From an uncultured bacterium (lineage in GTDB: Bacteria; Patescibacteriota; Patescibacteriia; Magasanikbacterales; GWA2-37-8): DNA of 64,000 bases. The stretch spans positions 67,275 to 131,274 of the forward strand of contig CALCZC010000025.1 in the NCBI GenBank assembly GCA_937903605.1. The letters are read 5' to 3'. The translations under genes and the position numbers were made by a program. The notes under the pieces are model-generated. The model was not told the DNA's origin. It was given only the letters and a program-made list of their open reading frames with translations, and ran no database searches. Shown here piece after piece: positions 8,054 through 48,976 of the stretch. Numbering within the stretch: position 1 is the first letter of the stretch; every line of letters begins with the position of its first letter.

Positions 8054-9097
8054 ATGCCAAAACTTTCTGTAAATTTAGTTGTCTGGAACGGGGCGAAATA
8101 TTTGCCTTATCTTTTTGATTCACTGCGTAAACAAAACTATCAAGATTGGGAATTGCAAATTTTAGATAATAATTCTACCGACAATACCATAGAAATTATT
8201 GAAAAAGAAATTATAAATTTTCCGGTCTCGGTAAGATTTTTCAAAGAAAAAGAAAATCATGGTTTTGCCAAAGGACATAATACATTATTTGCAGAAAGCG
8301 ACGATGAATATTTTTTACTTTTGAATCAAGATATGTATTTGGCGGAAGATTGTTTAGAAAAAATGGTAGATTTTTTGGATAAAAATCCGGCAGTTGCCGC
8401 AGTTTCACCTCGTTTGATGCGTTGGGATTTTGCCAAAATCAATGAAGGATTATTCGGGTCTTTTTCTTCACAAATAGACGCTTTGGGTTTGAAAGTTTTT
8501 CGTAATCGTCGCGTGATAGAACAGTATACCGGAAAAAATTGGGAAGAGATAAAAAATATTTTTGGATCAAAAGATAAAATGGAAGTTTTTGGCGTCTCCG
8601 GAGCTTTTCCGATGTATCGTCGTAGTGTCATAAAAAATGTTTTGTTTGATAACGGGCAGATGCTTGATGAAAGTTATCAATCTTACAAAGAAGATGTGGA
8701 TTTGGCTTATCGGTTGCAAGCCTCCGGGTACTCTTCCTTTATATTACTCGATACCATTGCTTATCATGATAGAGCCGGTGCCGGTCCTAAAGAAAGTGGA
8801 GATTTAGCGGCTTTAAAAAATAAGAAGAAACACAGTCCTTGGGTCAAATATTTTAGCTATAGAAATCATTTGGCGACTCTTTATAAAAACGAGCGCTGGC
8901 AAAACTTTTGGCTTGATTTTGTTTTTATTTTATGGTATGAATTGAAAAAGTTCGTTTATTTTTTGATTTTTGAACCGAAGATTTTAAAAGGTTGGGCCGA
9001 TTTGATGAAAGAAAGAAAAAATTTAAAAAGTAAAAGACAAGAAATTAAAAACAAACAAAAAATTTCTTGGAGGGATTTACGTAAATGGTGGAAATAA
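8054..9097 (+). CDS. glycosyltransferase family 2
   Basis: LSVNLVVWNG…LDNNSTDNT. Adjacent to and co-oriented with the other GT2 genes. Confidence 0.8.
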   Translation: MPKLSVNLVVWNGAKYLPYLFDSLRKQNYQDWELQILDNNSTDNTIEIIEKEIINFPVSVRFFKEKENHGFAKGHNTLFAESDDEYFLLLNQDMYLAEDCLEKMVDFLDKNPAVAAVSPRLMRWDFAKINEGLFGSFSSQIDALGLKVFRNRRVIEQYTGKNWEEIKNIFGSKDKMEVFGVSGAFPMYRRSVIKNVLFDNGQMLDESYQSYKEDVDLAYRLQASGYSSFILLDTIAYHDRAGAGPKESGDLAALKNKKKHSPWVKYFSYRNHLATLYKNERWQNFWLDFVFILWYELKKFVYFLIFEPKILKGWADLMKERKNLKSKRQEIKNKQKISWRDLRKWWK

Positions 9098-9101
9098 TTA
9101 T

Positions 9102-9941
9102 ATGAAAGACATAACAATAGTATTTGTAAATTATTTAATGAAAGACGACATTATAAATGCTGTCGATTCTTTGATCAAAGATATTGCTGATTGTCCCTAT
9201 GCCGTTCAAATAACGGTTACAGACAATTCGCAAAACAAAGATAATATCAAAGAATCTTTGGCGGAAAAATTTCCGCAAGTTAAATATATTGATTGTGGAG
9301 GAAATATCGGCTTTGGTGCCGGCAATCAAGTCGGTTTTATAGACACTCCGGCTCGTTATTATTTTGCTATTAATCGTGATACGATAATTCCAGAAAACAG
9401 CAGGACGATAGAACGGTTGGTAAGATTTATGGATGAACATCCTAAAATCGGCTGTATTGGGCCAAAATTACTGAACATGGACGGAACTCTGCAGGATACT
9501 TGTTATCGTTTTGATTTTCGTGCTTTATTGATTAAACCGCTCAAACAAATAAATTTTGATAAAAAATATGCTTGGGTAAAAAAATATACAGATTATCTTC
9601 TGATGAAAGATTTTGATCATAACGAAACCAGACCTGTAGATTGGGTTTTGGGAGCGGCCATGATAGTGCGTCAAGAAGTGGTAAACGAAATTGGTTGGTT
9701 TGATCCTAGATATTTTATGTATTTGGAAGATTGCGACTGGTGTCGCAGGATGTGGGAGTACCACTGGCCGGTTTATTATGTCCATGATATTGTCATATTA
9801 CATCGTCACGAAAGACAATCTGCCAAAGTTCCGGGAATTTTCAAAGCTTTGATAAAAAATAAAACCGCCCGCATCCATCTGGCCAGTTGGTGTAAATACC
9901 TCTGGAAATGGAAAGGTAAATATAAATATTATGCTGAATAA
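9102..9941 (+). CDS. glycosyltransferase family 2
   Basis: GT-A fold motifs (…VTDNSQN…, ED motif YLEDCDW). Confidence 0.7.
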   Translation: MKDITIVFVNYLMKDDIINAVDSLIKDIADCPYAVQITVTDNSQNKDNIKESLAEKFPQVKYIDCGGNIGFGAGNQVGFIDTPARYYFAINRDTIIPENSRTIERLVRFMDEHPKIGCIGPKLLNMDGTLQDTCYRFDFRALLIKPLKQINFDKKYAWVKKYTDYLLMKDFDHNETRPVDWVLGAAMIVRQEVVNEIGWFDPRYFMYLEDCDWCRRMWEYHWPVYYVHDIVILHRHERQSAKVPGIFKALIKNKTARIHLASWCKYLWKWKGKYKYYAE

Positions 9942-26089: not shown

Positions 26090-26405
26090 AGCGGGATTCT
26101 GCAGTTGATTACAAGTGATACTGCTATCACCTGTAATTCAACTATACATTAATTTTACGATTTTGTCAATGTTATCCACAACGGAAAAAGTACCTAAGAT
26201 TGTTGTAATACTAAATAAACAAAAAACCCAATCGGTTAGATTAGGCGCTTTGTTGAAGTAGCGTCTTAAAAAGTGGTTATCTGCGGCTTAAGTCCCGAGT
26301 TCCTCGGGGGAACACCACAGCGCTCTCTAAGCTATTATTGCATACTTCAAGATTAATATACCACAAAACCCCTTTTTCGCCAATATCAGCTTATCCACAG
26401 GTTTT

Positions 26406-27935: not shown

Positions 27936-27968
27936 TAACACTTCAGCCTGTAGGTTGAAGTGTTTGTT
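27936..27968 (+). terminator. family-2 hairpin terminator
   Basis: aacacttcagcctgtaggttgaagtgtttgtttt. Confidence 0.65.
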
Positions 27969-28175: not shown

Positions 28176-29105
28176 ATGAAAAGTTATTATCGTATAATGC
28201 TTGGCAAGGGTAGTGTTTATGCCAAAGAAGCAAGGTTAGAAAATTTTATGGGCGCCGGATGGCTTGGTGATATTGATTTAACAAATGAATTACCAGAAAG
28301 TCGAGTTGAATTCAATAAGAAATTCATACCTGTTTATTTAAAAAAACATCCTGATGCAAAGAAAATGTCAGCGGCCCTTGCTTGTGGTATGTTATACACG
28401 ATCGCAAAAGGTATTGTTATTGGTGATATTGTTTTATGTCCGGATGGGTCAGGTAATTATTATTTCGGAGAAGTCATTGGTGATTATCAATATGTGTCGG
28501 GAGTAAACTTACCGCACCGTCGTGCTGTGAAATGGTATTCCAAAATTATTCCCAGAGAAGAAATGAGTCAAGCTTTAAAATATTCCACTGGCGCCATTGG
28601 TACAGTTAGCAATATAACCGATCATGCTTCTGAATTAGAAAAATTGATATCAGGTAATGTTGAAAGTCCGATTGTTGTGACCGACGAGTCAATTGAAGAC
28701 CCAAGTGTATTTATGTTAGAGAAACATCTAGAGGATTTTTTGGTACAAAATTGGAACAATACTGAATTGGGTAAGAATTATAATATTTATGAAGAAGATG
28801 GTGAAATAGTGGGGCAACAATATCCTAGCGATACTGGTCCAATAGATATTTTGGCAATTAGTAAAGATAAAAAAACACTTTTGGTAGTTGAGTTAAAAAA
28901 AGGACGCGCAAGTGATGTGGTGGTCGGCCAAATTCAAAGGTACATGGGTTATGTAAAAGACGAATTAGCAGAAAAAAATCAAGAAATTAAAGGGGTTATA
29001 ATTGCTTTTGAAGATGATATTAAAATTCGCCGTGCTTTATCGGTTGCAAATAACATCGATTTTTATACTTATAAAATTGATTTTAAACTTGAAAAAAATA
29101 AATAA
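28176..29105 (+). CDS. YhcG/DUF1016-like PD-(D/E)xK nuclease-domain protein
   Basis: C-terminal …GPIDILAISKDKKTLLVVELKKGRASDVVVGQIQRYMGY… is a D…ExK motif resembling YhcG. It is the first gene of a tightly spaced 15-gene array. Confidence 0.5.
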   Translation: MKSYYRIMLGKGSVYAKEARLENFMGAGWLGDIDLTNELPESRVEFNKKFIPVYLKKHPDAKKMSAALACGMLYTIAKGIVIGDIVLCPDGSGNYYFGEVIGDYQYVSGVNLPHRRAVKWYSKIIPREEMSQALKYSTGAIGTVSNITDHASELEKLISGNVESPIVVTDESIEDPSVFMLEKHLEDFLVQNWNNTELGKNYNIYEEDGEIVGQQYPSDTGPIDILAISKDKKTLLVVELKKGRASDVVVGQIQRYMGYVKDELAEKNQEIKGVIIAFEDDIKIRRALSVANNIDFYTYKIDFKLEKNK

Positions 29106-29107
29106 TT

Positions 29108-30682
29108 ATGACTAATTTTAATACTTCAAAAGAACAAGAACGTGCCGAGCTTCATCGTGCTATTTGGCAAATTGCTAATGATCTAAGGGGAAGTGTAGAT
29201 GGTTGGGATTTCAAACAATATGTTTTGGGAATTTTGTTTTATAGATTTATTGGTGAAAATCTTTCTAATTATATCAATAAACAACAGAGAAAAGTTAAAG
29301 GGTTTGAAAATTTTGAATATTCAAATTTGAGCGATAAAGAAGCAGAATTGGGTAAAAAAGAAATTGTGTTGGCAAAGGGTTTCTATATTCTTCCAAGTGA
29401 GCTTTTTGTAAATGTTCGTAAAAATGCTAAAAACAATGCAAATTTAAACGAAACTCTTTCAAGAGTTTTTAGTAATATTGAAAATTCTGCAAAAGGTTTT
29501 GATAGTGAGGATGATATAAAAGGGTTATTTGCTGACCTTGATGTCAATTCTCCAAAACTTGGAAATACAGTTGAAAAACGTAATCAAAAATTAGTAAAAC
29601 TTTTAGATGCTATTGGAGATCTTCAATTAGGAAATTACTCTGATAATACTATCGATGCTTTCGGTGATGCTTATGAGTTTTTAATGACCATGTATGCTTC
29701 AAATGCTGGTAAATCTGGAGGTGAATTTTATACACCACAAGAAGTTAGTGAATTACTTGCAAAAATTACGACTGTGGGTAAAAAAGAGGTAAACAAAGTT
29801 TATGATCCATGTTGTGGTTCAGGATCGCTTCTTTTGAAATTTGCCAAAGTTCTTGGTAAAGAAAATGTCCGGCTTGGTTTTTTTGGTCAAGAAATAAATC
29901 TTACCACCTATAATTTGTGTCGTATCAACATGTTTTTACACGATATCAACTATAATCATTTTGATATTGAGCTCGGTGACACACTAACTGATCCCAAACA
30001 TTGGGATGACGAACCTTTTGATGCTATAGTTTCTAACCCGCCTTATTCAATTAATTGGGAAGGGGACGCTAATCCGCTTTTAATAAACGACCCTCGTTTT
30101 TCGCCTGCTGGAGTACTTGCTCCAAAGAGTAAAGCTGATTTGGCTTTCACCATGCACATGCTTTCGTGGCTTTCTACCAGCGGAACGGCGGCGATTGTTG
30201 AATTCCCTGGAGTTCTTTATCGTGGTGGAGCTGAAGCAAAAATCCGCAAATATTTGATTGATAACAATTACGTTGATGCTGTAATACAACTTCCACTAGA
30301 TCTTTTCTTTGGTACAACCATTGCTACTTGTGTTATCGTTTTAAAGAAGAGTAAAAAAGACAATAAGACTTTATTTATCGATGCTTCCGCTGAATTTGTT
30401 CGGGGTGGTAATAAAAATAAATTAAACGAAGAAAATCGTAAAAAGATCCTGAATGCTTTTATAGAAAGAAAAGATATAGAACATTTTGCAAAAATTATAG
30501 ATAACAAAGCTATTGCAGAAAATGATTACAATCTAGCAGTTTCTAGTTATGTGGAGCAAAAAGACACTAGAGAAGCAGTGGACATAAAAGAACTTAATAA
30601 AGAAATTGAGAGAATCGTAAAAAGACAAAGTGAATTAAGGTTGGCAATTGATGAGATTGTGAGGGAGATTGAGGGTAATTAA
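29108..30682 (+). CDS. hsdM: Type I restriction-modification system, DNA methyltransferase subunit M
   Basis: N6-adenine MTase motif IV NPPYS, an AdoMet-binding region (DPCCGSGSLL), and an HsdM N-terminal domain. Confidence 0.9.
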   Translation: MTNFNTSKEQERAELHRAIWQIANDLRGSVDGWDFKQYVLGILFYRFIGENLSNYINKQQRKVKGFENFEYSNLSDKEAELGKKEIVLAKGFYILPSELFVNVRKNAKNNANLNETLSRVFSNIENSAKGFDSEDDIKGLFADLDVNSPKLGNTVEKRNQKLVKLLDAIGDLQLGNYSDNTIDAFGDAYEFLMTMYASNAGKSGGEFYTPQEVSELLAKITTVGKKEVNKVYDPCCGSGSLLLKFAKVLGKENVRLGFFGQEINLTTYNLCRINMFLHDINYNHFDIELGDTLTDPKHWDDEPFDAIVSNPPYSINWEGDANPLLINDPRFSPAGVLAPKSKADLAFTMHMLSWLSTSGTAAIVEFPGVLYRGGAEAKIRKYLIDNNYVDAVIQLPLDLFFGTTIATCVIVLKKSKKDNKTLFIDASAEFVRGGNKNKLNEENRKKILNAFIERKDIEHFAKIIDNKAIAENDYNLAVSSYVEQKDTREAVDIKELNKEIERIVKRQSELRLAIDEIVREIEGN

Positions 30683-30688
30683 ATTAAT

Positions 30689-32890
30689 ATGAATAAATTA
30701 AAAGTTAAATTAGAAAATTGTTACGGAATAAAAAAGCTTGAACACGAGTTTGATTTTTCTAATTTTAAAACTTTTGTTATCTATGCACCCAACGGCGTAA
30801 TGAAGACATCATTTGCAAAAACCCTTAGCGATATTGCAAAAGGAGAAAAACCCTGTGATCAAATAGATGATACTTTAACACCAATTTTTAATTTTTTAAT
30901 TGATGATTCTGAAAATCAAATCCAATCAGAAGAAATATGTGTTATAGAGTCATACAACAAAAAAGCGTTTGATTCTGAAGATAAGATTCTTACGCTTCTA
31001 GCAGACGACGAGACCAAAAAGGAATATTTGGCAATATTTAACGAAATTGAATCACTTAAAAAAGCTTCTCTTCCTGGATTAAAAAAAATATCAGGCAGTA
31101 GTAACTACGAATCTGAAATTACAGAAGCATTTTCTAATCTTGATAAGAAAAATATTTTTGAAATTTTTGAGGCCGTTTTAAATGACATTGAAGCATCGAA
31201 AGATTCATTTGAATTTAAATATAACGATGTTTTTGATAAAGGTGGAAAAGTTAAAAAATTTCTGGCAGATAATTTTGCATTATTAAAAGAGTACATTGAA
31301 AAATACAATGATCTGATTAGTAAGTCTACTTTTTTTGCAAAAAATGCCAACCATATTTTTGGAACAACGGAAGCAAAAATTCTTGGTAAGTCGCTTGAGG
31401 GCGATGAATATTTTACTGCTGGGCATAAATTAGTATTAAAATCACATGGGGATGTATCTGCTAAAAATAAATTATCAGAAATAATTGATGAGGAAATTGA
31501 AAAAGTTTTTAATGATAAAGACCTGAAAGATATTTTTGAAAAAATCGATAATTTGCTCAATACTAATAAAGAACTTCAAGCATTTAAGAAGATTATTGAA
31601 AGAGACAATTCAATTTTATTGAGATTAAATAATTACGATGCTTTTAGAAGAGAGGTGTGGTTTAGTTTTTTAAAACAAATTGAGACAAGCATAAAATCAT
31701 TAGTTGAATTATATAATCAGAAAAAGGTTGATTTAGAAAGGATTATACAAAAAGCAAAGGACAGTCAGTCACAATGGGAAAGTGCTATTAAAGAATTTGA
31801 AAACAGATTTGTTAATAATCCATTTACTCTTGAAATTCAAAATAAGGCGGACGCTGTATTAAACGAAAAGACACCAGTAATTGATTTTAAATTTCAAGGA
31901 AAAGATATCGAAAGAAACAATTTGATAGAAAATGTATTGAGCCAAGGAGAGAGACGAGCTTTTTATATTTTAAATGTTATTTTTGAGATTAAATCTCGGC
32001 AGCTACAAAACAAAAAAACATTATTTATTATTGATGACATAGCGGACTCGTTTGATTACAAAAATAAATATGCAATTATTGAATATTTAAATGATTTATC
32101 CAAAGAAGATAATTTCTATTCAATAATTTTAACGCACAACTTTGACTTTTTTAGGACACTTCAATCAAGAATCTTGCAAGATAATAAGTGGAACTATTCT
32201 TTTATAGCAGAAAAACTAACAGATGAAATTAAACTAATTAAAGCAGGTAGTAAAAATGTTACTGACCCATTTACTAACTGGAAAGCAGGTCTTAATAACA
32301 ACAAAAAACATTTAATTGCTTGTATTCCTTTTGTGCGAAATTTGATTGAATTTAAAGATGGACGAAATGATGGATATAAGCTTCTAACGCACACTCTTCA
32401 TAGAAAATCTTTGGACGAAACTATTAAAGCAACCCCAGATATTTCAATTGCTGATCTACAAGCACCGTTTTCGAGTGTTGTGTCTGGTGTTGCATTTACA
32501 TTTACAGACACAAATGAAAAAATTATTGATGTAATTGAGGAACAGATAGCAGTGATAAAAAATGACAGAAATACCGATTCAATTGTTCTAGAAGATAAAA
32601 TTATTTTTGCTATTGGAATAAGATTGAAAGCAGAAGAATATATGTGGTCGAAGGTTACAAACCAAGATCTAATAAACGGATCGCAAACAGGTAAGCTGTT
32701 TCAGCGATACAAAGATCAATTTAAACAAGATCCGACTCATGTTGAAGCTATAAAAATCTTAGAAAGCGTAAATATAATGACTCCTGAGAACATACACCTG
32801 AACTCTTTTATGTATGAACCAATTTTAGATATAGGCATAGATGAGTTAAAGAGTTTACACGATAAGGTTTGCAATTTAATGAATAATTAG
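30689..32890 (+). CDS. ABC-type (Rad50/SMC-like) ATPase with ~400-aa helical insertion and C-terminal R-x3-E…H module; RloC-like anticodon-nuclease candidate
   Basis: Degenerate Walker A APNGVMKTS. ABC signature LSQGERRAF, Walker B LFIIDDIADSFD and H-loop ILTHNFDFF about 400 aa downstream. C-terminal GIRLKAEEY…(39 aa)…H. Lies between hsdM and hsdS. Confidence 0.5.
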   Translation: MNKLKVKLENCYGIKKLEHEFDFSNFKTFVIYAPNGVMKTSFAKTLSDIAKGEKPCDQIDDTLTPIFNFLIDDSENQIQSEEICVIESYNKKAFDSEDKILTLLADDETKKEYLAIFNEIESLKKASLPGLKKISGSSNYESEITEAFSNLDKKNIFEIFEAVLNDIEASKDSFEFKYNDVFDKGGKVKKFLADNFALLKEYIEKYNDLISKSTFFAKNANHIFGTTEAKILGKSLEGDEYFTAGHKLVLKSHGDVSAKNKLSEIIDEEIEKVFNDKDLKDIFEKIDNLLNTNKELQAFKKIIERDNSILLRLNNYDAFRREVWFSFLKQIETSIKSLVELYNQKKVDLERIIQKAKDSQSQWESAIKEFENRFVNNPFTLEIQNKADAVLNEKTPVIDFKFQGKDIERNNLIENVLSQGERRAFYILNVIFEIKSRQLQNKKTLFIIDDIADSFDYKNKYAIIEYLNDLSKEDNFYSIILTHNFDFFRTLQSRILQDNKWNYSFIAEKLTDEIKLIKAGSKNVTDPFTNWKAGLNNNKKHLIACIPFVRNLIEFKDGRNDGYKLLTHTLHRKSLDETIKATPDISIADLQAPFSSVVSGVAFTFTDTNEKIIDVIEEQIAVIKNDRNTDSIVLEDKIIFAIGIRLKAEEYMWSKVTNQDLINGSQTGKLFQRYKDQFKQDPTHVEAIKILESVNIMTPENIHLNSFMYEPILDIGIDELKSLHDKVCNLMNN

Positions 32891-32891
32891 T

Positions 32892-34010
32892 ATGAAAAAA
32901 CACCAATCAAAAATTGAAAAACTAATTTCAGAACTATGCCCTAATGGTGTGGAGTTTAAAATGCTTGGAGAACTAGAAGATGATAATTTGATTAAACTTG
33001 GACGTGGAAATGTAATTTCAAAAACTGATATTACAAACACACCTGGTGATTATCCGGTTTATTCTTCATCTGCAAATGATGAGGGCGAATTTGGCAGGTA
33101 TGGAAAATATATGTTTGATGATGAAAGAATTACGTGGTCAATCGATGGGGGCGGTAGATTTTTTTATAGACAGTCACATAAATATTCTGTAACAAATGTA
33201 TCGGGGTGGTTAAAAGTAAATGATAATAATGTATTAAATTTACGTTATTTGTATTTTGTTCTGTCAAATGCTTGGTTAACAAAAGTTTTTGATTATACAA
33301 AAAAAGCTCATCCTTCAGTAATTAGAGAAGAGTACAAAATCCCTATTCCACCTCTTGCAATTCAAGAAGAAATTGTAAAAATTCTTAATAGTTTTACGGA
33401 GCTGGAAGCGGAGCTGGAAGCGGAGCTGGAAGTAAGAAAGAAACAGTATGATTATTACCATAAAGAACTTTTTGATTTAAGGGATGATTTCGAATTAAAA
33501 ACACTTGGGGATATTTACGAATTTCAATATGGAGAAGGAAATACTATTCCTACTTCAGGGGATAAATTTCCAGTATATGGAAGTAATGGTATTGTTGGTT
33601 CTCATGAAAAATTCAACAGTGAAGATGCTCCGGTGATTGGACATATTGGAGCTTACGCAGGAATAGTAAATTGGGCTCAAGGAAAACACTTTGTTACATA
33701 CAACGGAGTTATTTGTAAAATCAAGCCAGGAGTTAATCCAAGGTTTGGTTATCATCTGTTGATTCTCCAAGATTTTAGATCAAAAGCAAACGCAGGGTCT
33801 CAACCTTTTGTTTCTTACGACATGCTTAGAAAAACCGAAGTAAAAATACCTCCTATTTTAATACAAAATAAAATTGCAGATGTCCTTGATAAATTTGATG
33901 CACTTGTAAACGATATTTCAGTTGGTTTGCCTGCCGAGCTCAAAGCACGTAGGTCACAATACGAATATTATAGAAATAAACTTCTTGATTTTAAAGAGTT
34001 AGAAAAATAA
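32892..34010 (+). CDS. hsdS: Type I restriction-modification system, specificity subunit S
   Basis: Two target-recognition domains. Central and C-terminal conserved helices (…LAIQEEIVKILNSFTELEAEL… and …LPAELKARRSQYEYYRNKLLDF). Confidence 0.85.
   Translation: MKKHQSKIEKLISELCPNGVEFKMLGELEDDNLIKLGRGNVISKTDITNTPGDYPVYSSSANDEGEFGRYGKYMFDDERITWSIDGGGRFFYRQSHKYSVTNVSGWLKVNDNNVLNLRYLYFVLSNAWLTKVFDYTKKAHPSVIREEYKIPIPPLAIQEEIVKILNSFTELEAELEAELEVRKKQYDYYHKELFDLRDDFELKTLGDIYEFQYGEGNTIPTSGDKFPVYGSNGIVGSHEKFNSEDAPVIGHIGAYAGIVNWAQGKHFVTYNGVICKIKPGVNPRFGYHLLILQDFRSKANAGSQPFVSYDMLRKTEVKIPPILIQNKIADVLDKFDALVNDISVGLPAELKARRSQYEYYRNKLLDFKELEK
33398..33433 (+). repeat. 3× 12-bp in-frame tandem repeat (GGAGCTGGAAGC; EAEL units) in the central conserved region of hsdS
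   Basis: ggagctggaagcggagctggaagcggagctggaagt. Confidence 0.85.
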
Positions 34011-34011
34011 T

Positions 34012-35166
34012 ATGGTTGAATTCGACTCAATCTCTGAATTGTTTGTTAATATAAAAAATGATTTATTATCAGATATTGATAAAAAGAGTATTGCTTTACT
34101 TTATGCTTTTAATTCTACTGGTAAGACAAGGCTTTCTATTGAGTTTGATGAATTAAACGAAAATGATAATGGTTATATTAAAGTACTATCTTATAATGCT
34201 TTTTTAGAAGACCTGTTTGTCTGGGATAATAAGAACCTTGTCTTAAATTTTAGTCCGGATGATTGGCGGATAAGATTTATTCAGGATCAAGGTTTAGAAA
34301 ATAAAATTGTAGAGAATTTTAAATTATTTACTAATTCAAAAGTTGAGCCTATCTTTGAAATTGAAACACATAGAGCAGAGCTCGATAAATTTATATTAGA
34401 CAAATCTAAACTAGGTGGAAATAAGATAGGAAAAATTTCTTTTTTTATTGCTTCAGGAGATGGAAAAAATAAAGATAGCATAAAAATTTCTAAAAGTGAA
34501 GAAAGTATACTGATATGGTCTGTTTTTTATTCTATTTTAGAGATTGTTATAGAAGAATTAAATACACCAGAAGAACATCGTTCAACTAATCTTTTTAATC
34601 ACCTTGAATATATTGTAATAGATGATCCTGTTTCTTCGATCGATGATGAAAGAATTATTTCTTTAGCAGTAAAATTATGTAGGACTATAAAGTTAAATGA
34701 AAATAGAAAAATAAACTTTTTAATAACCACACATCACGCTTTATTTTTTAATGTTTTATTTAATTCTTTCAAAAAATTTCAAAAATCTGATGTAAAAAAA
34801 TATTGTTATATTTTATCAAAAAATGGTAATATTTTTATATTAGAAAGCCAGAAAGATGATTCACCGTTTGCATATCATATTTTAGTTAAAAATAAGCTTA
34901 AAGAAGCAATAAAAAATGGAAGTCTTGAAAAATACCATTTTAATTTATTTAGAACTTTATTAGAAAAAACGGCAAATTTTTTAGGATATACTGATTGGGG
35001 TGAGTGTATTTATAAAGAAGAAAACAGAGAAGAAGTTAAAAGACTTATTAATTTATATAGTCATAGCAAATTATCAGAATTGGAAAGTGGAAGTTTAAGT
35101 AATGCTGATAAAGAGTTGTTTGCAAATACTTTTAATTCTTTTATGGAAGATTTTAAATATAAATAA
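34012..35166 (+). CDS. PrrC-like anticodon nuclease candidate (ABC-type ATPase N-domain + C-terminal R-x3-E…H module)
   Basis: Walker A FNSTGKTRL, Walker B YIVIDDPVSSIDD, H-loop LITTHHALFF. C-terminal FRTLLEK…(37 aa)…YSHSK. Sits between hsdS and hsdR, as in the prr locus. 384 aa (PrrC is about 396). Confidence 0.55.
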   Translation: MVEFDSISELFVNIKNDLLSDIDKKSIALLYAFNSTGKTRLSIEFDELNENDNGYIKVLSYNAFLEDLFVWDNKNLVLNFSPDDWRIRFIQDQGLENKIVENFKLFTNSKVEPIFEIETHRAELDKFILDKSKLGGNKIGKISFFIASGDGKNKDSIKISKSEESILIWSVFYSILEIVIEELNTPEEHRSTNLFNHLEYIVIDDPVSSIDDERIISLAVKLCRTIKLNENRKINFLITTHHALFFNVLFNSFKKFQKSDVKKYCYILSKNGNIFILESQKDDSPFAYHILVKNKLKEAIKNGSLEKYHFNLFRTLLEKTANFLGYTDWGECIYKEENREEVKRLINLYSHSKLSELESGSLSNADKELFANTFNSFMEDFKYK

Positions 35167-35169
35167 ATT

Positions 35170-38100
35170 ATGTCTAAAAATAATAATTACAATTTAGTTG
35201 CAGAAAATACACAAAGCACGGTTGTCGCCGAGTATGTTTCTGGTACAAAAAGATTATCACAATATCAAAGTGAAGATGCTTTAGAAAAAGCTTTTATTAA
35301 ACAATTAGAATCTCAGGCGTATGAATATATTGCGATTAAATCCGAAAATGATTTGATTCTTAATCTTCGCAAACAACTTGAAAAGTTAAATAGTTATACT
35401 TTTTCTGATGCAGAATGGGATAGATTTTTTACGAGCGAAATAGCAAATCCAAATCAGAGTATTGAAGAAAAAACTGCAACTATACAAGAAAATGAAGTAA
35501 AAAATTTATATGGTGATGATGGAAAATTTAAAAGAAATATAACTCTTTTAGATAAGAAAAATATTCACAACAACAGTCTGCAAGTCATCAATCAGTACGT
35601 CACCGAAGACGGACAAAGATCGAATCGTTATGATGTGACGGTATTGGTAAATGGATTACCGCTTATACACATTGAATTAAAACGTCGTGGAGTTGCTATT
35701 CAAGAAGCATTTAACCAAATAAACAGATATCAAAGAGAGAGTTTTTGGGCTTCAAGTGGTCTTTTTGAATATGTGCAATTGTTTGTAATATCTAATGGAA
35801 CACATACAAAATATTACAGCAATACAACAAGATCACAACACGTCAAAGAATCTCAAGAGGGTTCTAAAAATAAAGGAAAGAAGACCAGTAATAGTTTTGA
35901 ATTTACAAGTTGGTGGGCTGATGCAACAAATAGACCAATCACTGATTTGATGGACTTTGCAAAAACATTTTTTGCAAAGCATGCGATTTTGAATATTCTG
36001 ACGAAGTATTGCGTATTTACGACCGATCGCCTTTTGCTTGTTATGCGACCGTATCAAATCGTAGCAACAGAAAGAATTTTAAATCGCATTGAAGTTAGTA
36101 CAAATTATAAAAAACTTGGCACCACCGAAGCGGGTGGCTATATTTGGCACACCACAGGGTCAGGAAAGACTCTGACGAGTTTTAAAACTGCTCAATTGGC
36201 AAGTAAATTGTCATATGTAGATAAAGTATTGTTTGTGGTAGATCGTAAGGATTTGGACTATCAAACAATGAAAGAATATGACAAGTTTGAAAAAGGTGCG
36301 GCGAACAGCAATACGAGCACTGCGGTTTTAAAGAAACAACTGGAGGATTCAAATTCTAGAATTATTATCACAACAATTCAAAAACTTGATAGATTTATTG
36401 CCAAAAATTCTAGTCACACTATTTTTGATGGTCATATCGTAATTATTTTTGACGAGTGTCATCGTTCGCAATTTGGTGAAATGCATTCGAGTATTATAAA
36501 ATCATTTAATAATTATCACTTATTTGGATTTACTGGAACACCAATATTTTCTAAGAATGCTTCAGCTGGTGGCAGACCTGATTTCAAGACCACAGAGCAG
36601 GCTTTTGGTGAAAAATTACACACTTATACAATAGTTGATGCTATTTCTGATAAGAATGTTTTACCGTTTAAAGTTGATTATGTTTCAACTGTTAAAGAAG
36701 CAGAAAATATTGAAGACGCTCAAGTAAAAGATATTGACCGTGAAGCGGTATTATCCGCTCCAGAACGATTAGAAAATATTGTTCGCTATATTCGTGAACA
36801 TTTTGATCAGAAAACTAAAAGAAATAGTTTTTATAAAATTCAAGATAGAAGATTAGCGGGGTTTAATTCTGTTTTTGCAGTTTCTTCTATTGAGGTAGCA
36901 AAGAAATATTATCTTGAATTTAAAAGACAGTTGGCAGATGAACCGAGTGATAAAAAATTAAAAGTCGCCACAATATTTAGTTTTGGAGTAAATGACGAGG
37001 ATATAGACGGAATGATTGATGAAAATTCTGAAGATACAAGTGGTTTAGACGTAAGTTCAAGAGAGTTTCTTGAAAGTGCTATCAAAGATTATAATAAAAT
37101 GTTTGGAACGTCTTATGACACTTCATCTGAAAAATTTCAAAATTACTATAAAGATGTTAGTGAAAAAGTAAAAAAACGAGAAATAGACATCTTAATTGTG
37201 GTTAATATGTTTTTAACTGGTTTTGATGCTACTACTTTAAATACTTTGTGGGTAGATAAGAATTTGAGATTGCATGGATTACTTCAGGCATATTCAAGAA
37301 CTAACCGTATATTAAATAGTATTAAAACTTTTGGAAATATTGTTTGTTTTAGAAACCTAGAAAAAGCTACTAATGAAGCGATTGCTTTATTTGGAGATAA
37401 AGAAGCCGGTGGAATCGTATTACTTAAAGCATATGAGGATTACTACAATGGGTATAAAGAAGGTAATAAAGAAGTTCGAGGATACAAAAGTTTTGTTAAT
37501 GAACTACTTGCAAAGTTTCCAATCGGAGAAAGAATTATTGGAGAACAAAATCAAAAAGATTTTATAAAATTATACGGAGCAATTTTGAGAGTCAAAAATA
37601 TTTTAGCTACTTTCGATGAATTTAATGGTAATGAAATATTATCTGATAGAGATGTGCAAGATTATCATAGTATGTATATTGATTTATACAATGAATTCCG
37701 CAAAGCCGATGATTCTGAGAAAGAAAACATTAATGACGATATTGTTTTTGAAATGGAACTTATCAAACAAGTTGAAATTAACATTGATTATGTTCTTGGT
37801 CTTATAAAAATATATCATGAGGATCATGTAAAAAATAAAGAACTTTTGATAGATATTAATAAAGCAATTGATTCGAGTGTGGAATTGCGTAATAAAAAAG
37901 ATTTGATCAATCAGTTTATTACTTCCCTTGATGTTCATTCTATCATTGATGAAGATTGGCAAAAGTTTGTGGAAGAGAAAAAAGTCCAAGAATTAGAACA
38001 AATTATTGAAACTGAAAATCTTGATCATGAAGCTACATATAAATTTATAAAAAACTCTTTTAGAGATGGTAATATACCGATTACAGGAACCGCTATAAGT

Positions 38101-38226
38101 GATATTTTGCCACCAGTATCAATGTTTTCCCCAAACGGAGAAAGAACTAAAAAAAGAGAAGGTGTTTTGGATAAATTAACAAGATATTTTGAGAGGTTTT
38201 TTGATATTAGTAAAAGAGATTTATAG
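35170..38226 (+). CDS. hsdR: Type I restriction enzyme, R subunit (helicase/endonuclease)
   Basis: N-terminal PD-(D/E)xK (…LIHIELKRRG). SF2 motifs TTGSGKT (I), FDECHRSQ (II) and further helicase motifs. 1018 aa. Confidence 0.9.
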   Translation: MSKNNNYNLVAENTQSTVVAEYVSGTKRLSQYQSEDALEKAFIKQLESQAYEYIAIKSENDLILNLRKQLEKLNSYTFSDAEWDRFFTSEIANPNQSIEEKTATIQENEVKNLYGDDGKFKRNITLLDKKNIHNNSLQVINQYVTEDGQRSNRYDVTVLVNGLPLIHIELKRRGVAIQEAFNQINRYQRESFWASSGLFEYVQLFVISNGTHTKYYSNTTRSQHVKESQEGSKNKGKKTSNSFEFTSWWADATNRPITDLMDFAKTFFAKHAILNILTKYCVFTTDRLLLVMRPYQIVATERILNRIEVSTNYKKLGTTEAGGYIWHTTGSGKTLTSFKTAQLASKLSYVDKVLFVVDRKDLDYQTMKEYDKFEKGAANSNTSTAVLKKQLEDSNSRIIITTIQKLDRFIAKNSSHTIFDGHIVIIFDECHRSQFGEMHSSIIKSFNNYHLFGFTGTPIFSKNASAGGRPDFKTTEQAFGEKLHTYTIVDAISDKNVLPFKVDYVSTVKEAENIEDAQVKDIDREAVLSAPERLENIVRYIREHFDQKTKRNSFYKIQDRRLAGFNSVFAVSSIEVAKKYYLEFKRQLADEPSDKKLKVATIFSFGVNDEDIDGMIDENSEDTSGLDVSSREFLESAIKDYNKMFGTSYDTSSEKFQNYYKDVSEKVKKREIDILIVVNMFLTGFDATTLNTLWVDKNLRLHGLLQAYSRTNRILNSIKTFGNIVCFRNLEKATNEAIALFGDKEAGGIVLLKAYEDYYNGYKEGNKEVRGYKSFVNELLAKFPIGERIIGEQNQKDFIKLYGAILRVKNILATFDEFNGNEILSDRDVQDYHSMYIDLYNEFRKADDSEKENINDDIVFEMELIKQVEINIDYVLGLIKIYHEDHVKNKELLIDINKAIDSSVELRNKKDLINQFITSLDVHSIIDEDWQKFVEEKKVQELEQIIETENLDHEATYKFIKNSFRDGNIPITGTAISDILPPVSMFSPNGERTKKREGVLDKLTRYFERFFDISKRDL

Positions 38227-38232
38227 GTTTGT

Positions 38233-38946
38233 ATGAATATTTTAGGAATACACACTGAATTTATTGTTAATTCAACTCTATTAATAGGAGCTGTGGCTTA
38301 TCTATCACACTTTTTTGGTAAAGTCATAACCGACTGCAAACCAATAGTTGATGATCGTAAATGGGATGCCGAACTTTCCGGAGTTTATTATATTGGAATG
38401 TATGTTTTTTTGCCACTTACACTTTTATTAATCATTCCGCAATCCATATTGATGAATTTTCTTGATTCAATTGGTTTAAATAGTTTTGTTGCTGTTTTAT
38501 TACAGTTTATCCTTTGCTCTTATCTTTCTGTGTTTCAAGTAATTAAGTCACGGTTTTTTTACAGTGTGCCAACAGGACAAATAAAGTGGGTTGAAAAACG
38601 AATTGTAGAATATATAAAAAAGAAACGAAATTTTAAATTAAGTATTATTTTGGTGTTACTTGCACAAATACAATTATATTATTCTAGCAATGTTAGATTA
38701 TTTATTCTTGGTTTAATATTTTGTTTGATCTTTTATTTTTTACGTGCTGCCATATTTTCTTATGATAAAAATGTAAAACTAAATAAATTTAATATTTATT
38801 TTATAGATACAACGATTGCACCTTTACTTAATTATGATTTGGTTAAAATTAACGATGATCATATTAAGTTAAAAAAAGACGGTAAATTTATGATTATAAA
38901 TAAAAATACTATTTTACGTCTTGAGTGTTTAGAAAAAGAAAAATAA
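38233..38946 (+). CDS. hypothetical membrane protein
   Basis: 237 aa with about five TM helices. Very AT-rich. Confidence 0.4.
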   Translation: MNILGIHTEFIVNSTLLIGAVAYLSHFFGKVITDCKPIVDDRKWDAELSGVYYIGMYVFLPLTLLLIIPQSILMNFLDSIGLNSFVAVLLQFILCSYLSVFQVIKSRFFYSVPTGQIKWVEKRIVEYIKKKRNFKLSIILVLLAQIQLYYSSNVRLFILGLIFCLIFYFLRAAIFSYDKNVKLNKFNIYFIDTTIAPLLNYDLVKINDDHIKLKKDGKFMIINKNTILRLECLEKEK

Positions 38947-38953
38947 TAAAAAT

Positions 38954-39592
38954 ATGAATTTAAATGATTATACCAAAAGATTTGAAAAATGTTATCAAAT
39001 TTTTTCCGAAACTTTTTTAAGTTTTTTTGTTTGGAAGGGATTACAAGATAAAGATTTTGAAAAGACATATTCAGAAAATAATTATTTTTGGTCCGCCATT
39101 CTTCGTTCGCTTGAAAATGATTGGCTTACTAATCTTGCAAAAATATATGAAGAATCAAGATATAGTAAAGAAAATGAAGTAATTTCTGTGTATGCTCTTG
39201 TATCATACCAGGCTGACCTTGATCGAGCAGTCAAAGTCAGACAGATTTTAGAAGTAAATGCAGATATTATTAAAAATATTCAAATTTTACGTCATAATCA
39301 GTTGGCGCACAATAATGCTGAGCATTTACTAAAGCCGGAGACGTTGTTAGAGAAATTTCCGATTGAATATAATAAAGTAGAACAACTTGTGTTGTTAACA
39401 GATGAAGTTTTATCAAATTTACATCCTGAAACGGGTCACGGATATATTTATAAAATGCTTTCTGAAGATGCTGTCAACGACAGTAAAAATATTATAAAAA
39501 AATTACAATATTATTCAAAACTTCACCATAATCATTCAGAAAAATTTAGGTGTGGAGAAGTAAATGATTGGAAATTTCCACCAGATTTATAA
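38954..39592 (+). CDS. HEPN-like (R-x4-6-H) Abi-type hypothetical protein
   Basis: …ILRHNQLAHNNAEH… fits the HEPN Rx4-6H motif. Immediately downstream of hsdR. Confidence 0.4.
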   Translation: MNLNDYTKRFEKCYQIFSETFLSFFVWKGLQDKDFEKTYSENNYFWSAILRSLENDWLTNLAKIYEESRYSKENEVISVYALVSYQADLDRAVKVRQILEVNADIIKNIQILRHNQLAHNNAEHLLKPETLLEKFPIEYNKVEQLVLLTDEVLSNLHPETGHGYIYKMLSEDAVNDSKNIIKKLQYYSKLHHNHSEKFRCGEVNDWKFPPDL

Positions 39593-39603
39593 TTTAAATA
39601 AAT

Positions 39604-40179
39604 ATGCAAACACCGATTTTAATAAAAGAACATGTGAGTATAACTCAATTTATTAATTTTTGGTCAAGTTATTATATTTATGCAAAAATTGAAAATTATT
39701 ATATAAAAAATATAAATAAAAAAGTATTTGATAGTGAAACGTTAAACGCTTTATTTATGTGGAAGAATGGATCTGTGTTAAGTAAAAAAAAGAAAGATTC
39801 TCTGAATAAAAATATTATAAGAAAAATTGAAATAATAAATTCTCTTAAAAATAAATTTGATTTCGATCTGTTTAAAAAGGAATTTAAAAATGTGTCTGTA
39901 ATATGGAAAATTTTTCTTCTAAACTTAATTAAACCGAAAACATACCCCATATTTGATCAACATGTTTTTAGAGCGATGAAATTTATTAAATTTTCTAAAA
40001 TTGAAGAAGTTCCAAATAATGACAGAGAAAAAGAAGAAGTATATTTTGATGAATACATAGATTTTTTTAATAAAATTAAAGCTGAATTACCAAGAGATTT
40101 TGATAATAAAAAAATTGATGAAGCACTTTGGTCTTTTGGAAAATTTCTTAAGAGTAATTACAAAACAATTTTATGTTAG
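39604..40179 (+). CDS. hypothetical protein
   Basis: 191-aa Lys-rich ORF. No motif recognised. Confidence 0.35.
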   Translation: MQTPILIKEHVSITQFINFWSSYYIYAKIENYYIKNINKKVFDSETLNALFMWKNGSVLSKKKKDSLNKNIIRKIEIINSLKNKFDFDLFKKEFKNVSVIWKIFLLNLIKPKTYPIFDQHVFRAMKFIKFSKIEEVPNNDREKEEVYFDEYIDFFNKIKAELPRDFDNKKIDEALWSFGKFLKSNYKTILC

Positions 40180-47836: not shown

Positions 47837-48976
47837 GTGAGTATGAGAAATAAAAAAATGCCTAAAGTGTTAGTCTGTCTCTCCGGTGGCGTAGATTCTT
47901 CTGTAGCCGCCGCTCTTTTGGTTAAGGCCGGATATGATGTTACCGGCGCATTTATGGTGAATTATGATGATAAGGATGCTCTGACAAGTTGCTGGCGAGG
48001 GGATTACCAGGATGCTCTGCGAGTCGCTGCTAAACTTCATATTCCGCTTTTACGTTTGAATTTTGTTCGGGAATACAAAAAAGCGGTTTTGGACTACATG
48101 TACTCTGAGTACAAAAAAGGCCGGACACCAAATCCGGATGTTTTGTGCAATAAATTTGTGAAATTTGGGTTTTGGTTGAAAAAAGCGAAAAGTTTGGGTT
48201 TTGATTACCTTGCGACCGGTCATTACGCCCGACTTTCCAGTTTGTCATCCCGCGGGCCAAAGGCCTCCCTTTGGGAAAGGCGGGAATCCAGTATCAAATT
48301 GGTTAGCGCTGTTGACGATAATAAAGACCAAACATATTTCCTTCATCAATTGAACCAATCTCAATTAAAGCATATCATGTTCCCCATAGGCGAATATACC
48401 AAAGACCAAGTTCGTAAATTGGCGGATAAATTTGATTTACCAACTGCCAAAAAAGAAGAAAGCATGGGTATTTGTTTTATCGGGGAAGTACCGATGAAAG
48501 AATTTTTACAAAAAAAGATTAAATCAAAAAAAGGAAAAGTGATTTTAAATAATAGTAAAGAAGTTTTGGGCGAACATGACGGTGTCCCTTTTTATACTAT
48601 CGGACAAAGATTGGGTTTGAATAATAAACCTTATTTTGTTGTTAAAAAAGACGCAAAGAAAAATATTTTGTTTGTCGGAACTGAAAATGATCCGGAACTT
48701 TTGAAGAAAGAAATTGAAGTTGAAAATGTAAATTGGATAAGTGGACAAAAGCCGAAATTGCCGTTAAAATGTGAAGTAAGACTGCGACATAGACAGACAC
48801 TACAAAAGTGTAGTGTCGAGTTCATAAAGTCTATAAAGTCCGTAAAGTCCATAAAGACGAAAGCGAATAATAATGTAATTATTAAGTTTCAAACCCCGCA
48901 ACGGGCCGTCACCCCCGGACAGTTTGCAGTTTTATACAATAAAGGTGTTTGTTTGGGTGGAGGAGTGGTAAAATAA
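47837..48976 (+). CDS. mnmA: tRNA-specific 2-thiouridylase MnmA (with an in-frame repeat-derived insertion)
   Basis: PP-loop SGGVDSS. Conserved …NKDQTYFL…. Alternative starts at ATG 47843 or 47858. Confidence 0.85.
   Translation: MSMRNKKMPKVLVCLSGGVDSSVAAALLVKAGYDVTGAFMVNYDDKDALTSCWRGDYQDALRVAAKLHIPLLRLNFVREYKKAVLDYMYSEYKKGRTPNPDVLCNKFVKFGFWLKKAKSLGFDYLATGHYARLSSLSSRGPKASLWERRESSIKLVSAVDDNKDQTYFLHQLNQSQLKHIMFPIGEYTKDQVRKLADKFDLPTAKKEESMGICFIGEVPMKEFLQKKIKSKKGKVILNNSKEVLGEHDGVPFYTIGQRLGLNNKPYFVVKKDAKKNILFVGTENDPELLKKEIEVENVNWISGQKPKLPLKCEVRLRHRQTLQKCSVEFIKSIKSVKSIKTKANNNVIIKFQTPQRAVTPGQFAVLYNKGVCLGGGVVK
48242..48291. repeat. family-1 palindromic repeat unit inserted in-frame inside mnmA
   Basis: ttgtcatcccgcgggccaaaggcctccctttgggaaaggcgggaatccag. 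The unit is near-identical to copies at 27987 and 62426. Confidence 0.8.

What the first reader, a model, noticed from the sequence alone, without database searches (positions are those of the whole stretch)
34012..35166. PrrC-like gene at the canonical position (hsdS–X–hsdR) with conserved catalytic spacing
The protein is 384 aa (PrrC is about 396). The N-terminal ABC-like NTPase shows Walker A FNSTGKT, Walker B YIVIDDP and an H-loop TTHH. The C-terminus has FRTLLEK…YSHSK: Arg, Glu four residues later, and His 37 residues after the Arg. PrrC's ACNase triad is Arg320/Glu324/His356, a spacing of 36. If genuine, this is a latent tRNA anticodon nuclease held by the Type I enzyme.
Basis: partly seen in the sequence, partly recalled or inferred. 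Interest (0 to 1): 0.75.

Follow-up and report, generated by a model that had tools for sequence, protein, structure and literature searches.

The report
PrrC anticodon nuclease in restriction operon
The gene is a genuine but ordinary member of the well-known PrrC family: a normally silent tRNA-cutting "suicide" enzyme that sits inside a type I DNA restriction operon as a back-up defence against phages, found here in a candidate-phyla-radiation bacterium.

Summary
The observation and the interpretation both hold. ORF 34012-35166 (+) encodes a 384-aa protein with every motif at the stated positions.

- **Homology:** it aligns over almost its full length with E. coli PrrC (36% identity, E 1e-67). 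It scores 334 bits (E 2.6e-100) on the PADLOC PrrC model.
- **Catalytic residues:** R314, E318 and H351 align exactly with R320, E324 and H356. Of the 33 residues shown by mutagenesis to be essential in EcoPrrC, 26 are identical. The other 7 vary across the family.
- **Spacing:** the 37-residue Arg-to-His spacing is the second commonest family variant (28 of 80 sequences; 36 residues in 34).
- **Context:** all 80 species-level homologues examined lie beside type I R-M genes related to those here, mostly in the order hsdS-prrC-hsdR. The HsdR here is 43% identical to the HsdR next to EcoPrrC.

This is a new member of a known kind, in a Candidatus Magasanikbacteria genome.

- **Not inferable:** the tRNA substrate, because the lysine-anticodon recognition peptide is only 4/11 identical.
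- **Less ordinary:** the same operon carries a second, uncharacterised 733-aa ABC ATPase (PADLOC PDC-S46) between hsdM and hsdS.

The parts
34012..35166 (+). prrC homologue, 384 aa: an N-terminal ABC-type NTPase fused to a C-terminal HEPN anticodon-nuclease domain
   Evidence: ORF. PADLOC PrrC model E 2.6e-100, 334 bits. Pfam AAA_13 above its cut-off. 36% identity to EcoPrrC, E 1e-67. AF2 model mean pLDDT 84.9.
34108..34131 (+). Walker A / P-loop, FNSTGKTR (K38 T39 R40 = EcoPrrC K46 T47 R48)
   Evidence: These residues are invariant in 122 homologues.
34183..34230 (+). PrrC box, VLSYNAFLEDLFVWDN (E66 W71 D72 N73 = EcoPrrC E88 W93 D94 N95), a motif unique to the PrrC family
   Evidence: The motif is defined in PMC1484252.
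34363..34428 (+). 22-residue insertion (ETHRAELDKFILDKSKLGGNKI) relative to EcoPrrC and most homologues; predicted to be disordered
   Evidence: Alignment. pLDDT is below 50 for residues 121-136. Among the sequences read, a comparable insert is seen in the two closest (P0002, P0006) and not in the others.
34480..34506 (+). ABC signature region, IKISKSEES (K158, K161 = EcoPrrC K168, K171)
34609..34647 (+). Walker B and D-loop, YIVIDDPVSSIDD (D204 D205 S208 S209 D211 D212 = EcoPrrC D215 D216 S219 S220 D222 D223)
34726..34737 (+). H-loop, TTHH (T240 H241 = EcoPrrC T250 H251)
34843..34875 (+). Segment equivalent to the EcoPrrC lysine-anticodon recognition peptide (LARP, residues 284-294). Only 4 of 11 residues are identical, and there is a 2-residue deletion.
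   Evidence: Alignment. LARP is defined in PMC3025547 and PMC1950546.
34864..35163 (+). C-terminal all-helical HEPN nuclease domain (about residues 285-384)
34936..34968 (+). HFNLFRTLLEK: H309, R314, E318, K319 (= EcoPrrC H315, R320, E324, K325)
   Evidence: R, E and K are invariant in 80 of 80 sequences.
35041..35064 (+). RLINLYSH: R344, N347, S350, H351 (= EcoPrrC R349, N352, S355, H356). This is the HEPN Rx4-6H motif.
   Evidence: The motif is defined in PMC3710099.
32892..34010 (+). hsdS, the specificity subunit. Its stop codon lies 1 nt before the prrC ATG.
   Evidence: Pfam Methylase_S, E 1.5e-36. Junction sequence.
35170..38226 (+). hsdR, a type IC-like restriction subunit. It starts 3 nt after the prrC stop codon.
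   Evidence: Pfam HSDR_N, SWI2_SNF2, T1R_D3-like and EcoR124_C. 43% identical over its full length to the HsdR next to EcoPrrC. Junction sequence.
29108..30682 (+). hsdM, the methyltransferase subunit
   Evidence: Pfam N6_Mtase E 2.6e-115 and HsdM_N.
30689..32890 (+). 733-aa ABC/SMC-like ATPase of unknown function (PADLOC candidate PDC-S46), inserted between hsdM and hsdS. It is a second cargo gene and is not a PrrC relative.
   Evidence: PADLOC E 6.7e-231. Only a sub-threshold Pfam SMC_N hit. hhalign against the PrrC profile matches only the P-loop region, at 41% probability. Context.
28176..29105 (+). 309-aa NucS_C/PD-(D/E)XK-like protein (PADLOC candidate PDC-S02), the first gene of the cluster. 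It follows a 12-bp-stem terminator-like hairpin at 27937-27964.

Best explanation
The ORF encodes a functional member of the PrrC family of restriction-linked anticodon nucleases.

**Shown here**
- A two-domain protein: an ABC/Rad50-type NTPase fused to a HEPN RNase.
- It is homologous to E. coli PrrC along almost its whole length.
- It keeps the nucleotide-binding residues, the family-specific PrrC box and the nuclease residues: H289, H309, R314, E318, R344, N347, H351.
- It is tightly packed (1-nt and 3-nt gaps) between hsdS and hsdR of a type IC-like R-M system in a Candidatus Magasanikbacteria chromosome.

**Inferred from the E. coli system (PMC1484252, PMC3025547, PMC3710099)**
- In uninfected cells the protein is an oligomer kept silent by association with the HsdM/S/R enzyme.
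- When a phage anti-restriction factor disables or perturbs that enzyme, nucleotide binding and hydrolysis at the head-to-tail NTPase dimer switch on the HEPN site.
- Translation stops and the infection aborts.

Which tRNA is cut cannot be inferred. The peptide that reads the lysine anticodon in EcoPrrC is not conserved here.
For: - **Family models:** PADLOC PrrC HMM E 2.6e-100, 334 bits, covering residues 20-384. For calibration, EcoPrrC scores 489.5 bits and an IncC-plasmid PrrC 471 bits on the same model.
- **Pairwise homology:** BLASTP to EcoPrrC gives 36% identity, E 1e-67.
- **Essential residues:** 26 of the 33 residues essential in EcoPrrC (PMC3025547, Table 1) are identical. The 7 differences all fall at positions that vary family-wide.
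- **Invariant positions:** the equivalents of R320, E324, K325, S355, H356 and H295 are invariant in 80 of 80 sequences. R-to-H spacing is 36 in 34 sequences and 37 in 28.
- **Context:** in 80 of 80 GTDB species loci the homologue lies next to genes for a related type I R-M system, and the majority are hsdM-hsdS-prrC-hsdR.
- **R-M partner:** the HsdR carries the EcoR124_C domain and is 43% identical over its full length to the HsdR flanking EcoPrrC.
- **Operon packing:** gaps of 1 nt and 3 nt indicate co-transcription.
Against: - There is no biochemical evidence for this protein or any close relative.
- Seven residues essential in EcoPrrC differ: N224E, H225R, K245N, E262S, D276G, H297L and N321T. 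N321 tolerated no substitution in EcoPrrC.
- The LARP segment is only 4/11 identical and 2 residues shorter, so tRNA-Lys specificity is unsupported.
- Two bona fide PrrC homologues (Neisseria, Xanthomonas) were not toxic in the yeast assay (PMC3025547), so family membership does not guarantee detectable activity in a heterologous host.
- Silencing by the R-M enzyme and activation by a phage factor are extrapolated from one E. coli/T4 system.
Confidence: 0.85

Rival explanations
1. It is an active HEPN RNase of the PrrC family, but its target is not a tRNA anticodon loop. It might cut another site in tRNA, or rRNA or mRNA.
For: The LARP segment is poorly conserved: 4 of 11 residues identical, with a 2-residue deletion. 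The authors of PMC1484252 themselves propose that PrrC homologues have diverse substrate specificities. Other HEPN RNases cut mRNA or rRNA (PMC3710099).
Against: The only PrrC and RloC proteins characterised so far cut tRNA anticodon loops (PMC1484252, PMC2610378). The catalytic and surrounding residues are the same as in EcoPrrC. The S. mutans PrrC has an equally divergent LARP (3/11) and is still toxic in yeast (PMC3025547).
Confidence: 0.08
2. It is an RloC-type or other free-standing ABC-HEPN nuclease that regulates itself (for example by sensing DNA damage). On this reading its position in the R-M operon is incidental.
For: Pfam assigns it only to AAA_13, which covers both PrrC and RloC. 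There are weak hits to the PADLOC PDC-S06 models, which are about 730-aa AAA_13-like proteins.
Against: The protein is 384 aa, not about 800. It has no coiled-coil insertion and no CxxC zinc hook. The PrrC model scores E 2.6e-100 against 1.8e-06 for PDC-S06. Linkage to R-M genes holds in 80 of 80 homologue loci, whereas RloC is rarely linked (PMC3458546).
Confidence: 0.03
3. It is a catalytically dead relic, or an accessory NTPase of the R-M enzyme with no nuclease role.
For: Seven residues that are essential in EcoPrrC differ here, including N321T and K245N. The gene's GC content (24.6%) is well below that of its neighbours.
Against: The reading frame is intact, with purifying-selection-like conservation of all NTPase and HEPN catalytic residues across 122 and 80 homologues. 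The seven differing positions vary in the whole family, including in the S. mutans homologue that is toxic in yeast (H297 is Met there; PMC3025547).
Confidence: 0.03
4. The motifs are a chance resemblance in an AT-rich ORF.
For: None beyond the low complexity of AT-rich coding sequence.
Against: The statistics rule this out: E 1e-67 to EcoPrrC over 367 aligned columns, 2123 database homologues, and a confident two-domain structure prediction.
Confidence: 0.005

Closest known systems
E. coli PrrC (EcoPrrC), the tRNA-Lys anticodon nuclease of the prr locus, linked to the type IC enzyme EcoprrI
   Same: The domain architecture is the same: ABC NTPase, PrrC box, then HEPN nuclease. The size is similar (384 against 396 aa) and identity is 36%. 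Walker A, signature, Walker B, D-loop and H-loop are all present. The equivalents of H295, H315, R320, E324, K325, R349, N352, S355 and H356 are all present. The gene sits in the same position, between hsdS and hsdR of a related type IC-like system (HsdR 43% identical).
   Different: The LARP tRNA-Lys recognition peptide is only 4/11 identical and 2 residues shorter. Seven residues essential in EcoPrrC are substituted. There is a 22-residue disordered insertion at 118-139. The Arg-to-His spacing is 37, not 36. The host is a CPR bacterium, and the operon carries extra cargo genes. No activator comparable to T4 Stp is known.
RloC, the wobble-nucleotide-excising anticodon nuclease
   Same: It has an ABC-type NTPase fused to a homologous HEPN nuclease domain with the same Arg/Glu/His residues. 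Both fall in Pfam AAA_13.
   Different: RloC is about twice as long. It carries a Rad50-like coiled-coil insertion with a CxxC zinc hook, and it is rarely linked to R-M genes (PMC2610378, PMC3458546). None of these features is present here.
Other R-M-embedded HEPN or abortive-infection modules (ApeA, AbiU2, other ABC-HEPN fusions described in PMC3710099)
   Same: The logic is the same: a HEPN RNase encoded in or next to an R-M operon, proposed to act as a second line of defence. An AbiU2-type HEPN gene lies two genes downstream in this window (38954-39592).
   Different: Those families lack the PrrC-type NTPase domain and the PrrC box, and they are not detectably similar in sequence to this protein.

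Membership tests
PrrC anticodon nuclease family | Significant full-length sequence homology to EcoPrrC and to a PrrC family model | tested here: met
   BLASTP 36% identity, E 1e-67. PADLOC PrrC HMM 334 bits, E 2.6e-100, covering residues 20-384. EcoPrrC scores 489.5 bits on the same model. NCBIfam has no PrrC model, since EcoPrrC itself gets no hit there.
PrrC anticodon nuclease family | N-terminal ABC-type NTPase with Walker A (K46 T47 R48), signature (K168, K171), Walker B/D-loop (D215 D216 S219 S220 D222 D223) and H-loop (T250 H251) | tested here: met
   All 15 listed residues are identical in the window protein: K38 T39 R40, K158 K161, D204 D205 S208 S209 D211 D212, T240 H241. The N-domain model matches Rad50 and ABC ATPases.
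PrrC anticodon nuclease family | PrrC box, the family-specific acidic/aromatic motif (EcoPrrC residues 68-94, essential E88 W93 D94 N95) | tested here: met
   YNAFLEDLFVWDN is present. E66, W71, D72 and N73 are identical to EcoPrrC.
PrrC anticodon nuclease family | C-terminal nuclease residues R320/E324/H356, plus H295, H315, R349 and N352 | tested here: met
   R314, E318, H351, H289, H309, R344 and N347 align with them. The R, E and H positions are invariant in 80 of 80 sequences. N321 is Thr here, but that position varies family-wide (Ala is the commonest residue).
PrrC anticodon nuclease family | Gene embedded in a type I (EcoprrI-like, type IC) R-M operon | tested here: met
   The order is hsdS-prrC-hsdR with 1-nt and 3-nt gaps. 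HsdR has the EcoR124_C domain and is 43% identical to the HsdR next to EcoPrrC. All 80 homologue loci show R-M linkage.
PrrC anticodon nuclease family | LARP peptide (KYGDSNKSFSY) for tRNA-Lys recognition. This is a feature of a subset of the family, not of the whole family. | tested here: not met
   The window has QKDDS--PFAY: 4 of 11 residues identical, with a 2-residue deletion. D287 and S288 are retained. The S. mutans PrrC is equally divergent (3/11) yet toxic in yeast (PMC3025547).
PrrC anticodon nuclease family | Cleavage of a tRNA anticodon loop; latency on the R-M enzyme; activation by a phage anti-restriction factor together with GTP and dTTP | not testable with these tools
   This needs expression, tRNA analysis and co-purification experiments.
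HEPN superfamily | Helical HEPN fold with an Rx4-6H motif | tested here: met
RloC | Long Rad50-like coiled-coil insertion with a CxxC zinc hook between the NTPase lobes; protein of about 800 aa | tested here: not met
   The protein is 384 aa. It has no CxxC and only 3 Cys. The model has no long coiled coil. No RloC sequence was available, so no direct alignment was made.

The most novel reading that the evidence does not exclude
One type IC R-M enzyme in a reduced CPR (Magasanikbacteria) genome may act as the hub for two unrelated embedded ABC-ATPase effectors.

- One is PrrC, between hsdS and hsdR.
- The other is the uncharacterised 733-aa PDC-S46 protein, between hsdM and hsdS.

On this reading PDC-S46 would be a second, mechanistically different abortive-infection effector, also guarded by the R-M enzyme. 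Its conserved C-terminal motifs (R645-x3-E649, N701-x-H703-x-N705-S706) would form a new toxin site.
Probability: 0.25. Interest if true: 0.55.

Novelty: new member of a known kind. Interest (0 to 1): 0.25.

Why it matters
- **Annotation:** the result puts a hypothetical/AAA_13 protein on firm ground as a PrrC-type anticodon nuclease.
- **Host range:** the PrrC/type IC R-M partnership, worked out in E. coli and phage T4, extends with its catalytic machinery intact into candidate-phyla-radiation bacteria. By the homologue survey it also reaches archaeal MAGs.
- **Limits:** it does not open a new question. PrrC homologues are numerous (more than 2000 in the database searched) and are already detected by defence-system annotation tools.
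- **What is useful for follow-up:** the operon is a compact natural example of several defence cargo genes stacked on one type I system. One of those genes (PDC-S46) has no known function and no literature.

Tried and rejected
1. **PDB sequence search.** The search with the protein found nothing meaningful: only a coiled-coil M protein at E 0.18. No solved PrrC structure could be used.
2. **NCBIfam.** It gave no hit. This proved uninformative, because EcoPrrC itself has no NCBIfam hit.
3. **Foldseek on the whole model.** It returned only ABC/Rad50 matches for the N-domain. The C-domain therefore had to be modelled separately to test the HEPN fold.
4. **Is the 733-aa neighbour a second PrrC/RloC-like nuclease?** BLASTP found nothing. 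hhalign matched only the P-loop region, at 41% probability. A profile search of the PDB found nothing. Pfam on its C-terminal half found nothing. The idea was rejected as unsupported.
5. **Is low GC a family trait of prrC?** The window gene has 24.6% GC, but the E. coli plasmid prrC has the same GC as its neighbours. Rejected.
6. **Naming the organism from the protein's own cluster.** This failed because the cluster carries no names. An AlaRS search gave Candidatus Magasanikbacteria instead.
7. **Window-wide RNA searches.** No tRNA genes were found, so the likely substrate tRNA could not be examined.
8. **Promoter scan.** The count was no better than in shuffled sequence: 63 against 66 expected.
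9. **Alignment to RloC.** Not done, because no RloC sequence could be obtained with the tools. RloC was excluded on architecture and model scores only.

Full report
**The observation.** The window has an ATG-to-TAA ORF at 34012-35166 on the + strand, encoding 384 aa. The complementary strand is full of stops. R314, E318 and H351 have the stated spacings of +4 and +37.

**The surroundings.** The ORF lies in a run of same-strand, tightly packed genes:
- 28176-29105: a NucS_C/PD-(D/E)XK-like protein (PADLOC candidate PDC-S02).
- 29108-30682: HsdM.
- 30689-32890: a 733-aa ABC/SMC-like ATPase (PADLOC candidate PDC-S46).
- 32892-34010: HsdS.
- 34012-35166: the ORF in question.
- 35170-38226: HsdR.
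- 38233-38946: a 237-aa protein with no family hit.
- 38954-39592: a HEPN_AbiU2 protein.

The hsdS stop codon is 1 nt from the ORF's ATG, and the ORF's stop codon is 3 nt from the hsdR ATG. A 12-bp-stem terminator-like hairpin at 27937-27964 precedes the cluster.

**Finding a reference EcoPrrC.** A tblastn search of plasmids found E. coli records annotated 'anticodon nuclease'. One lies on a P1-like IncY plasmid, in the order hsdM-hsdS-anticodon nuclease-hsdR, and encodes 396 aa. That protein carries KYGDSNKSFSY at residues 284-294. It also has the expected residue letter at all 53 positions mutated in Meineke et al. 2010 (PMC3025547, Table 1). I used it as EcoPrrC.

**Alignment to EcoPrrC.** BLASTP of the window protein against it gives 36% identity over 367 columns, E 1e-67. 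R314, E318 and H351 align with R320, E324 and H356. The extra residue lies in the loop between them.

In a 122-sequence MAFFT alignment, 26 of the 33 residues essential in EcoPrrC are identical in the window protein:
- Walker A: K38 T39 R40.
- PrrC box: E66 W71 D72 N73.
- Signature: K158 K161.
- Walker B and D-loop: D204 D205 S208 S209 D211 D212.
- H-loop: T240 H241, plus N247.
- Nuclease domain: H289 K293 H309 R314 E318 R344 N347 H351.

The seven differences are N224E, H225R, K245N, E262S, D276G, H297L and N321T. All fall at positions that vary throughout the family.

**Family models.** The PADLOC PrrC model scores the protein at 334 bits, E 2.6e-100. EcoPrrC scores 489.5 bits and an IncC-plasmid PrrC 471 bits on the same model. 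Pfam places the protein in AAA_13, above the gathering score.

**Conservation across the family.** The large protein database holds 2123 homologues with E up to 1e-3. A scan of one genome per GTDB species returned 80 loci from very diverse bacteria and some archaeal MAGs. I aligned 77 of these with the window protein and two E. coli plasmid PrrCs. The equivalents of R320, E324, K325, S355, H356 and H295 are invariant. The Arg-to-His spacing is 36 in 34 sequences and 37 in 28.

**Fold.** AlphaFold2 with a 65-sequence alignment gave mean pLDDT 84.9.
- Foldseek against the PDB matched the N-domain to Rad50 and ABC-transporter ATPases.
- Generic helical bundles score nearly as well. The fold match is supporting evidence, not proof.
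- It agrees with the published assignment of the PrrC and RloC nuclease domains to the HEPN superfamily, and with the Rx4-6H motif (PMC3710099), which here is R344-x6-H351.

No solved PrrC structure turned up by sequence search of the PDB.

**Genomic context.** In all 80 species loci the PrrC homologue lies next to genes that match this window's HsdM, HsdS or HsdR. The great majority have the order hsdM-hsdS-prrC-hsdR, with a few permutations. The window's HsdR has the EcoR124_C domain typical of type IC enzymes. It is 43% identical over its full length to the HsdR beside EcoPrrC. The 'canonical position' claim is therefore correct, and the family's defining genetic linkage is met.

**Mechanism.**
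- Shown: homology, conserved NTPase and nuclease residues, the predicted folds and operon membership.
- Inferred from the E. coli system (PMC1484252, PMC3025547, PMC3710099): latency through association with the R-M enzyme; activation when a phage anti-restriction factor compromises that enzyme; control by nucleotides through the NTPase dimer; and metal-independent cleavage of a tRNA anticodon loop, causing abortive infection.
- Unknown: the substrate. The segment equivalent to the lysine-anticodon recognition peptide shares only 4 of 11 residues and is two residues shorter. D287 and S288 are retained. The S. mutans homologue is similarly divergent yet toxic in yeast (PMC3025547).

**Rivals.**
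- RloC is excluded by size, by the absence of a coiled-coil insertion and a CxxC hook, and by model scores. I could not obtain an RloC sequence for a direct alignment.
- A dead relic is unlikely, because every catalytic position is conserved.
- Chance is excluded by the statistics.

**Beyond the finding: the 733-aa protein.** It has an ABC-type P-loop, signature, Walker B and H-loop. It is not detectably related to PrrC elsewhere:
- hhalign matches only the P-loop region, at 41% probability.
- BLASTP, a PDB profile search and Pfam on its C-terminal half found nothing.
- No paper mentions PDC-S46.

Several of its closest relatives with enough flanking sequence sit in hsdM-X-hsdS-hsdR operons without PrrC. 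The pairing with PrrC appears only in this window and in four Saccharibacteria loci.

**Beyond the finding: a cargo hot spot.** In 26 of 63 PrrC loci with the order hsdM…hsdS-prrC, the hsdM/hsdS junction holds 0.8 kb or more of other cargo. This includes RhuM, Fic/DOC, OLD-type ATPases, SMODS, a Shedu-like nuclease, Mrr, YhcG and a reverse transcriptase. The RhuM and Fic/DOC associations are already noted in PMC3710099.

**Source organism.** The window is chromosomal, with ClpB, FtsW/RodA, DnaB, AlaRS and MnmA. It comes from a Candidatus Magasanikbacteria MAG: its AlaRS is 99% identical to one so named.

**Verdict.** This is a new member of a known family. Interest is low to moderate. The less ordinary part is the stacked defence cargo, especially the uncharacterised PDC-S46 gene.

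Noticed in passing
window 30689-32890 (+): A 733-aa ABC/SMC-like ATPase (PADLOC candidate PDC-S46, E 6.7e-231) is inserted between hsdM and hsdS. It has no Pfam family above cut-off, no PDB sequence hit and no literature. Invariant C-terminal motifs include R645-x3-E649 and P699..H703-x-N705-S706-F-M-Y-E-P. Several of its closest relatives occupy the same hsdM/hsdS slot without PrrC. It co-occurs with PrrC only here and in 4 Saccharibacteria loci (L045, L059, L063, L081).
   Followed up: partly
window 28176-29105 (+): A 309-aa protein with a NucS_C/YhcG-like PD-(D/E)XK C-terminal domain (PADLOC candidate PDC-S02, E 3e-153) lies immediately upstream of hsdM, with a 2-nt gap. Similar genes precede hsdM in L016 and L073.
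   Followed up: no
window 38233-38946 and 38954-39592 (+): Directly after hsdR come a 237-aa protein with no family hit, which looks hydrophobic and possibly membrane-bound, and a 212-aa HEPN_AbiU2 protein (Pfam E 4.2e-12). The AbiU2 protein is a second HEPN RNase candidate in the same gene run. Neither has a counterpart in the 80 PrrC loci examined.
   Followed up: no
loci L009-L081, between hsdM and hsdS: In 26 of 63 PrrC-bearing type I operons, the hsdM/hsdS junction carries 0.8-3.5 kb of varied defence cargo: RhuM, Fic/DOC, OLD-type AAA_15 with TOPRIM, SMODS, SduA_C, Mrr, YhcG and a reverse transcriptase. The junction looks like a cargo hot spot.
   Followed up: partly
window 26254-26349 (-): Rfam DUF3800-V RNA motif, 72.9 bits against a gathering score of 37.4, full-length match. 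It lies just upstream of the defence gene cluster.
   Followed up: no
window 34363-34428 (+), residues 118-139 of the PrrC homologue: A 22-residue insertion (ETHRAELDKFILDKSKLGGNKI) between two N-domain strands, predicted disordered (pLDDT below 50 for residues 121-136). Among the sequences read, a comparable insert is seen only in the two closest (P0002, P0006).
   Followed up: no
window 30000-40000: GC content drops across the defence cluster. prrC is 24.6%, the 237-aa gene 25.8% and ABC733 28.9%, against 35.1% for the window and 31-34% for the hsd genes. This suggests the cargo genes were acquired separately. The E. coli plasmid prrC shows no such dip.
   Followed up: partly
window 47837-48976 (+) and whole window: An MnmA-type tRNA 2-thiouridylase gene is present. 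From my own knowledge, this enzyme makes the s2U34 modification carried by tRNA-Lys, the EcoPrrC substrate. No tRNA gene lies in the window. The window is chromosomal DNA of a Candidatus Magasanikbacteria (CPR) MAG, judged by 99% AlaRS identity.
   Followed up: partly
L005 (E. coli IncC plasmid LC744502.1), locus 1-9699: A second, divergent PrrC clade (371 aa) is common on IncC and Klebsiella plasmids: 71 Klebsiella records among 113 plasmid hits. It sits in a differently ordered operon, hsdR-X-X-hsdS-prrC-hsdM.
   Followed up: no
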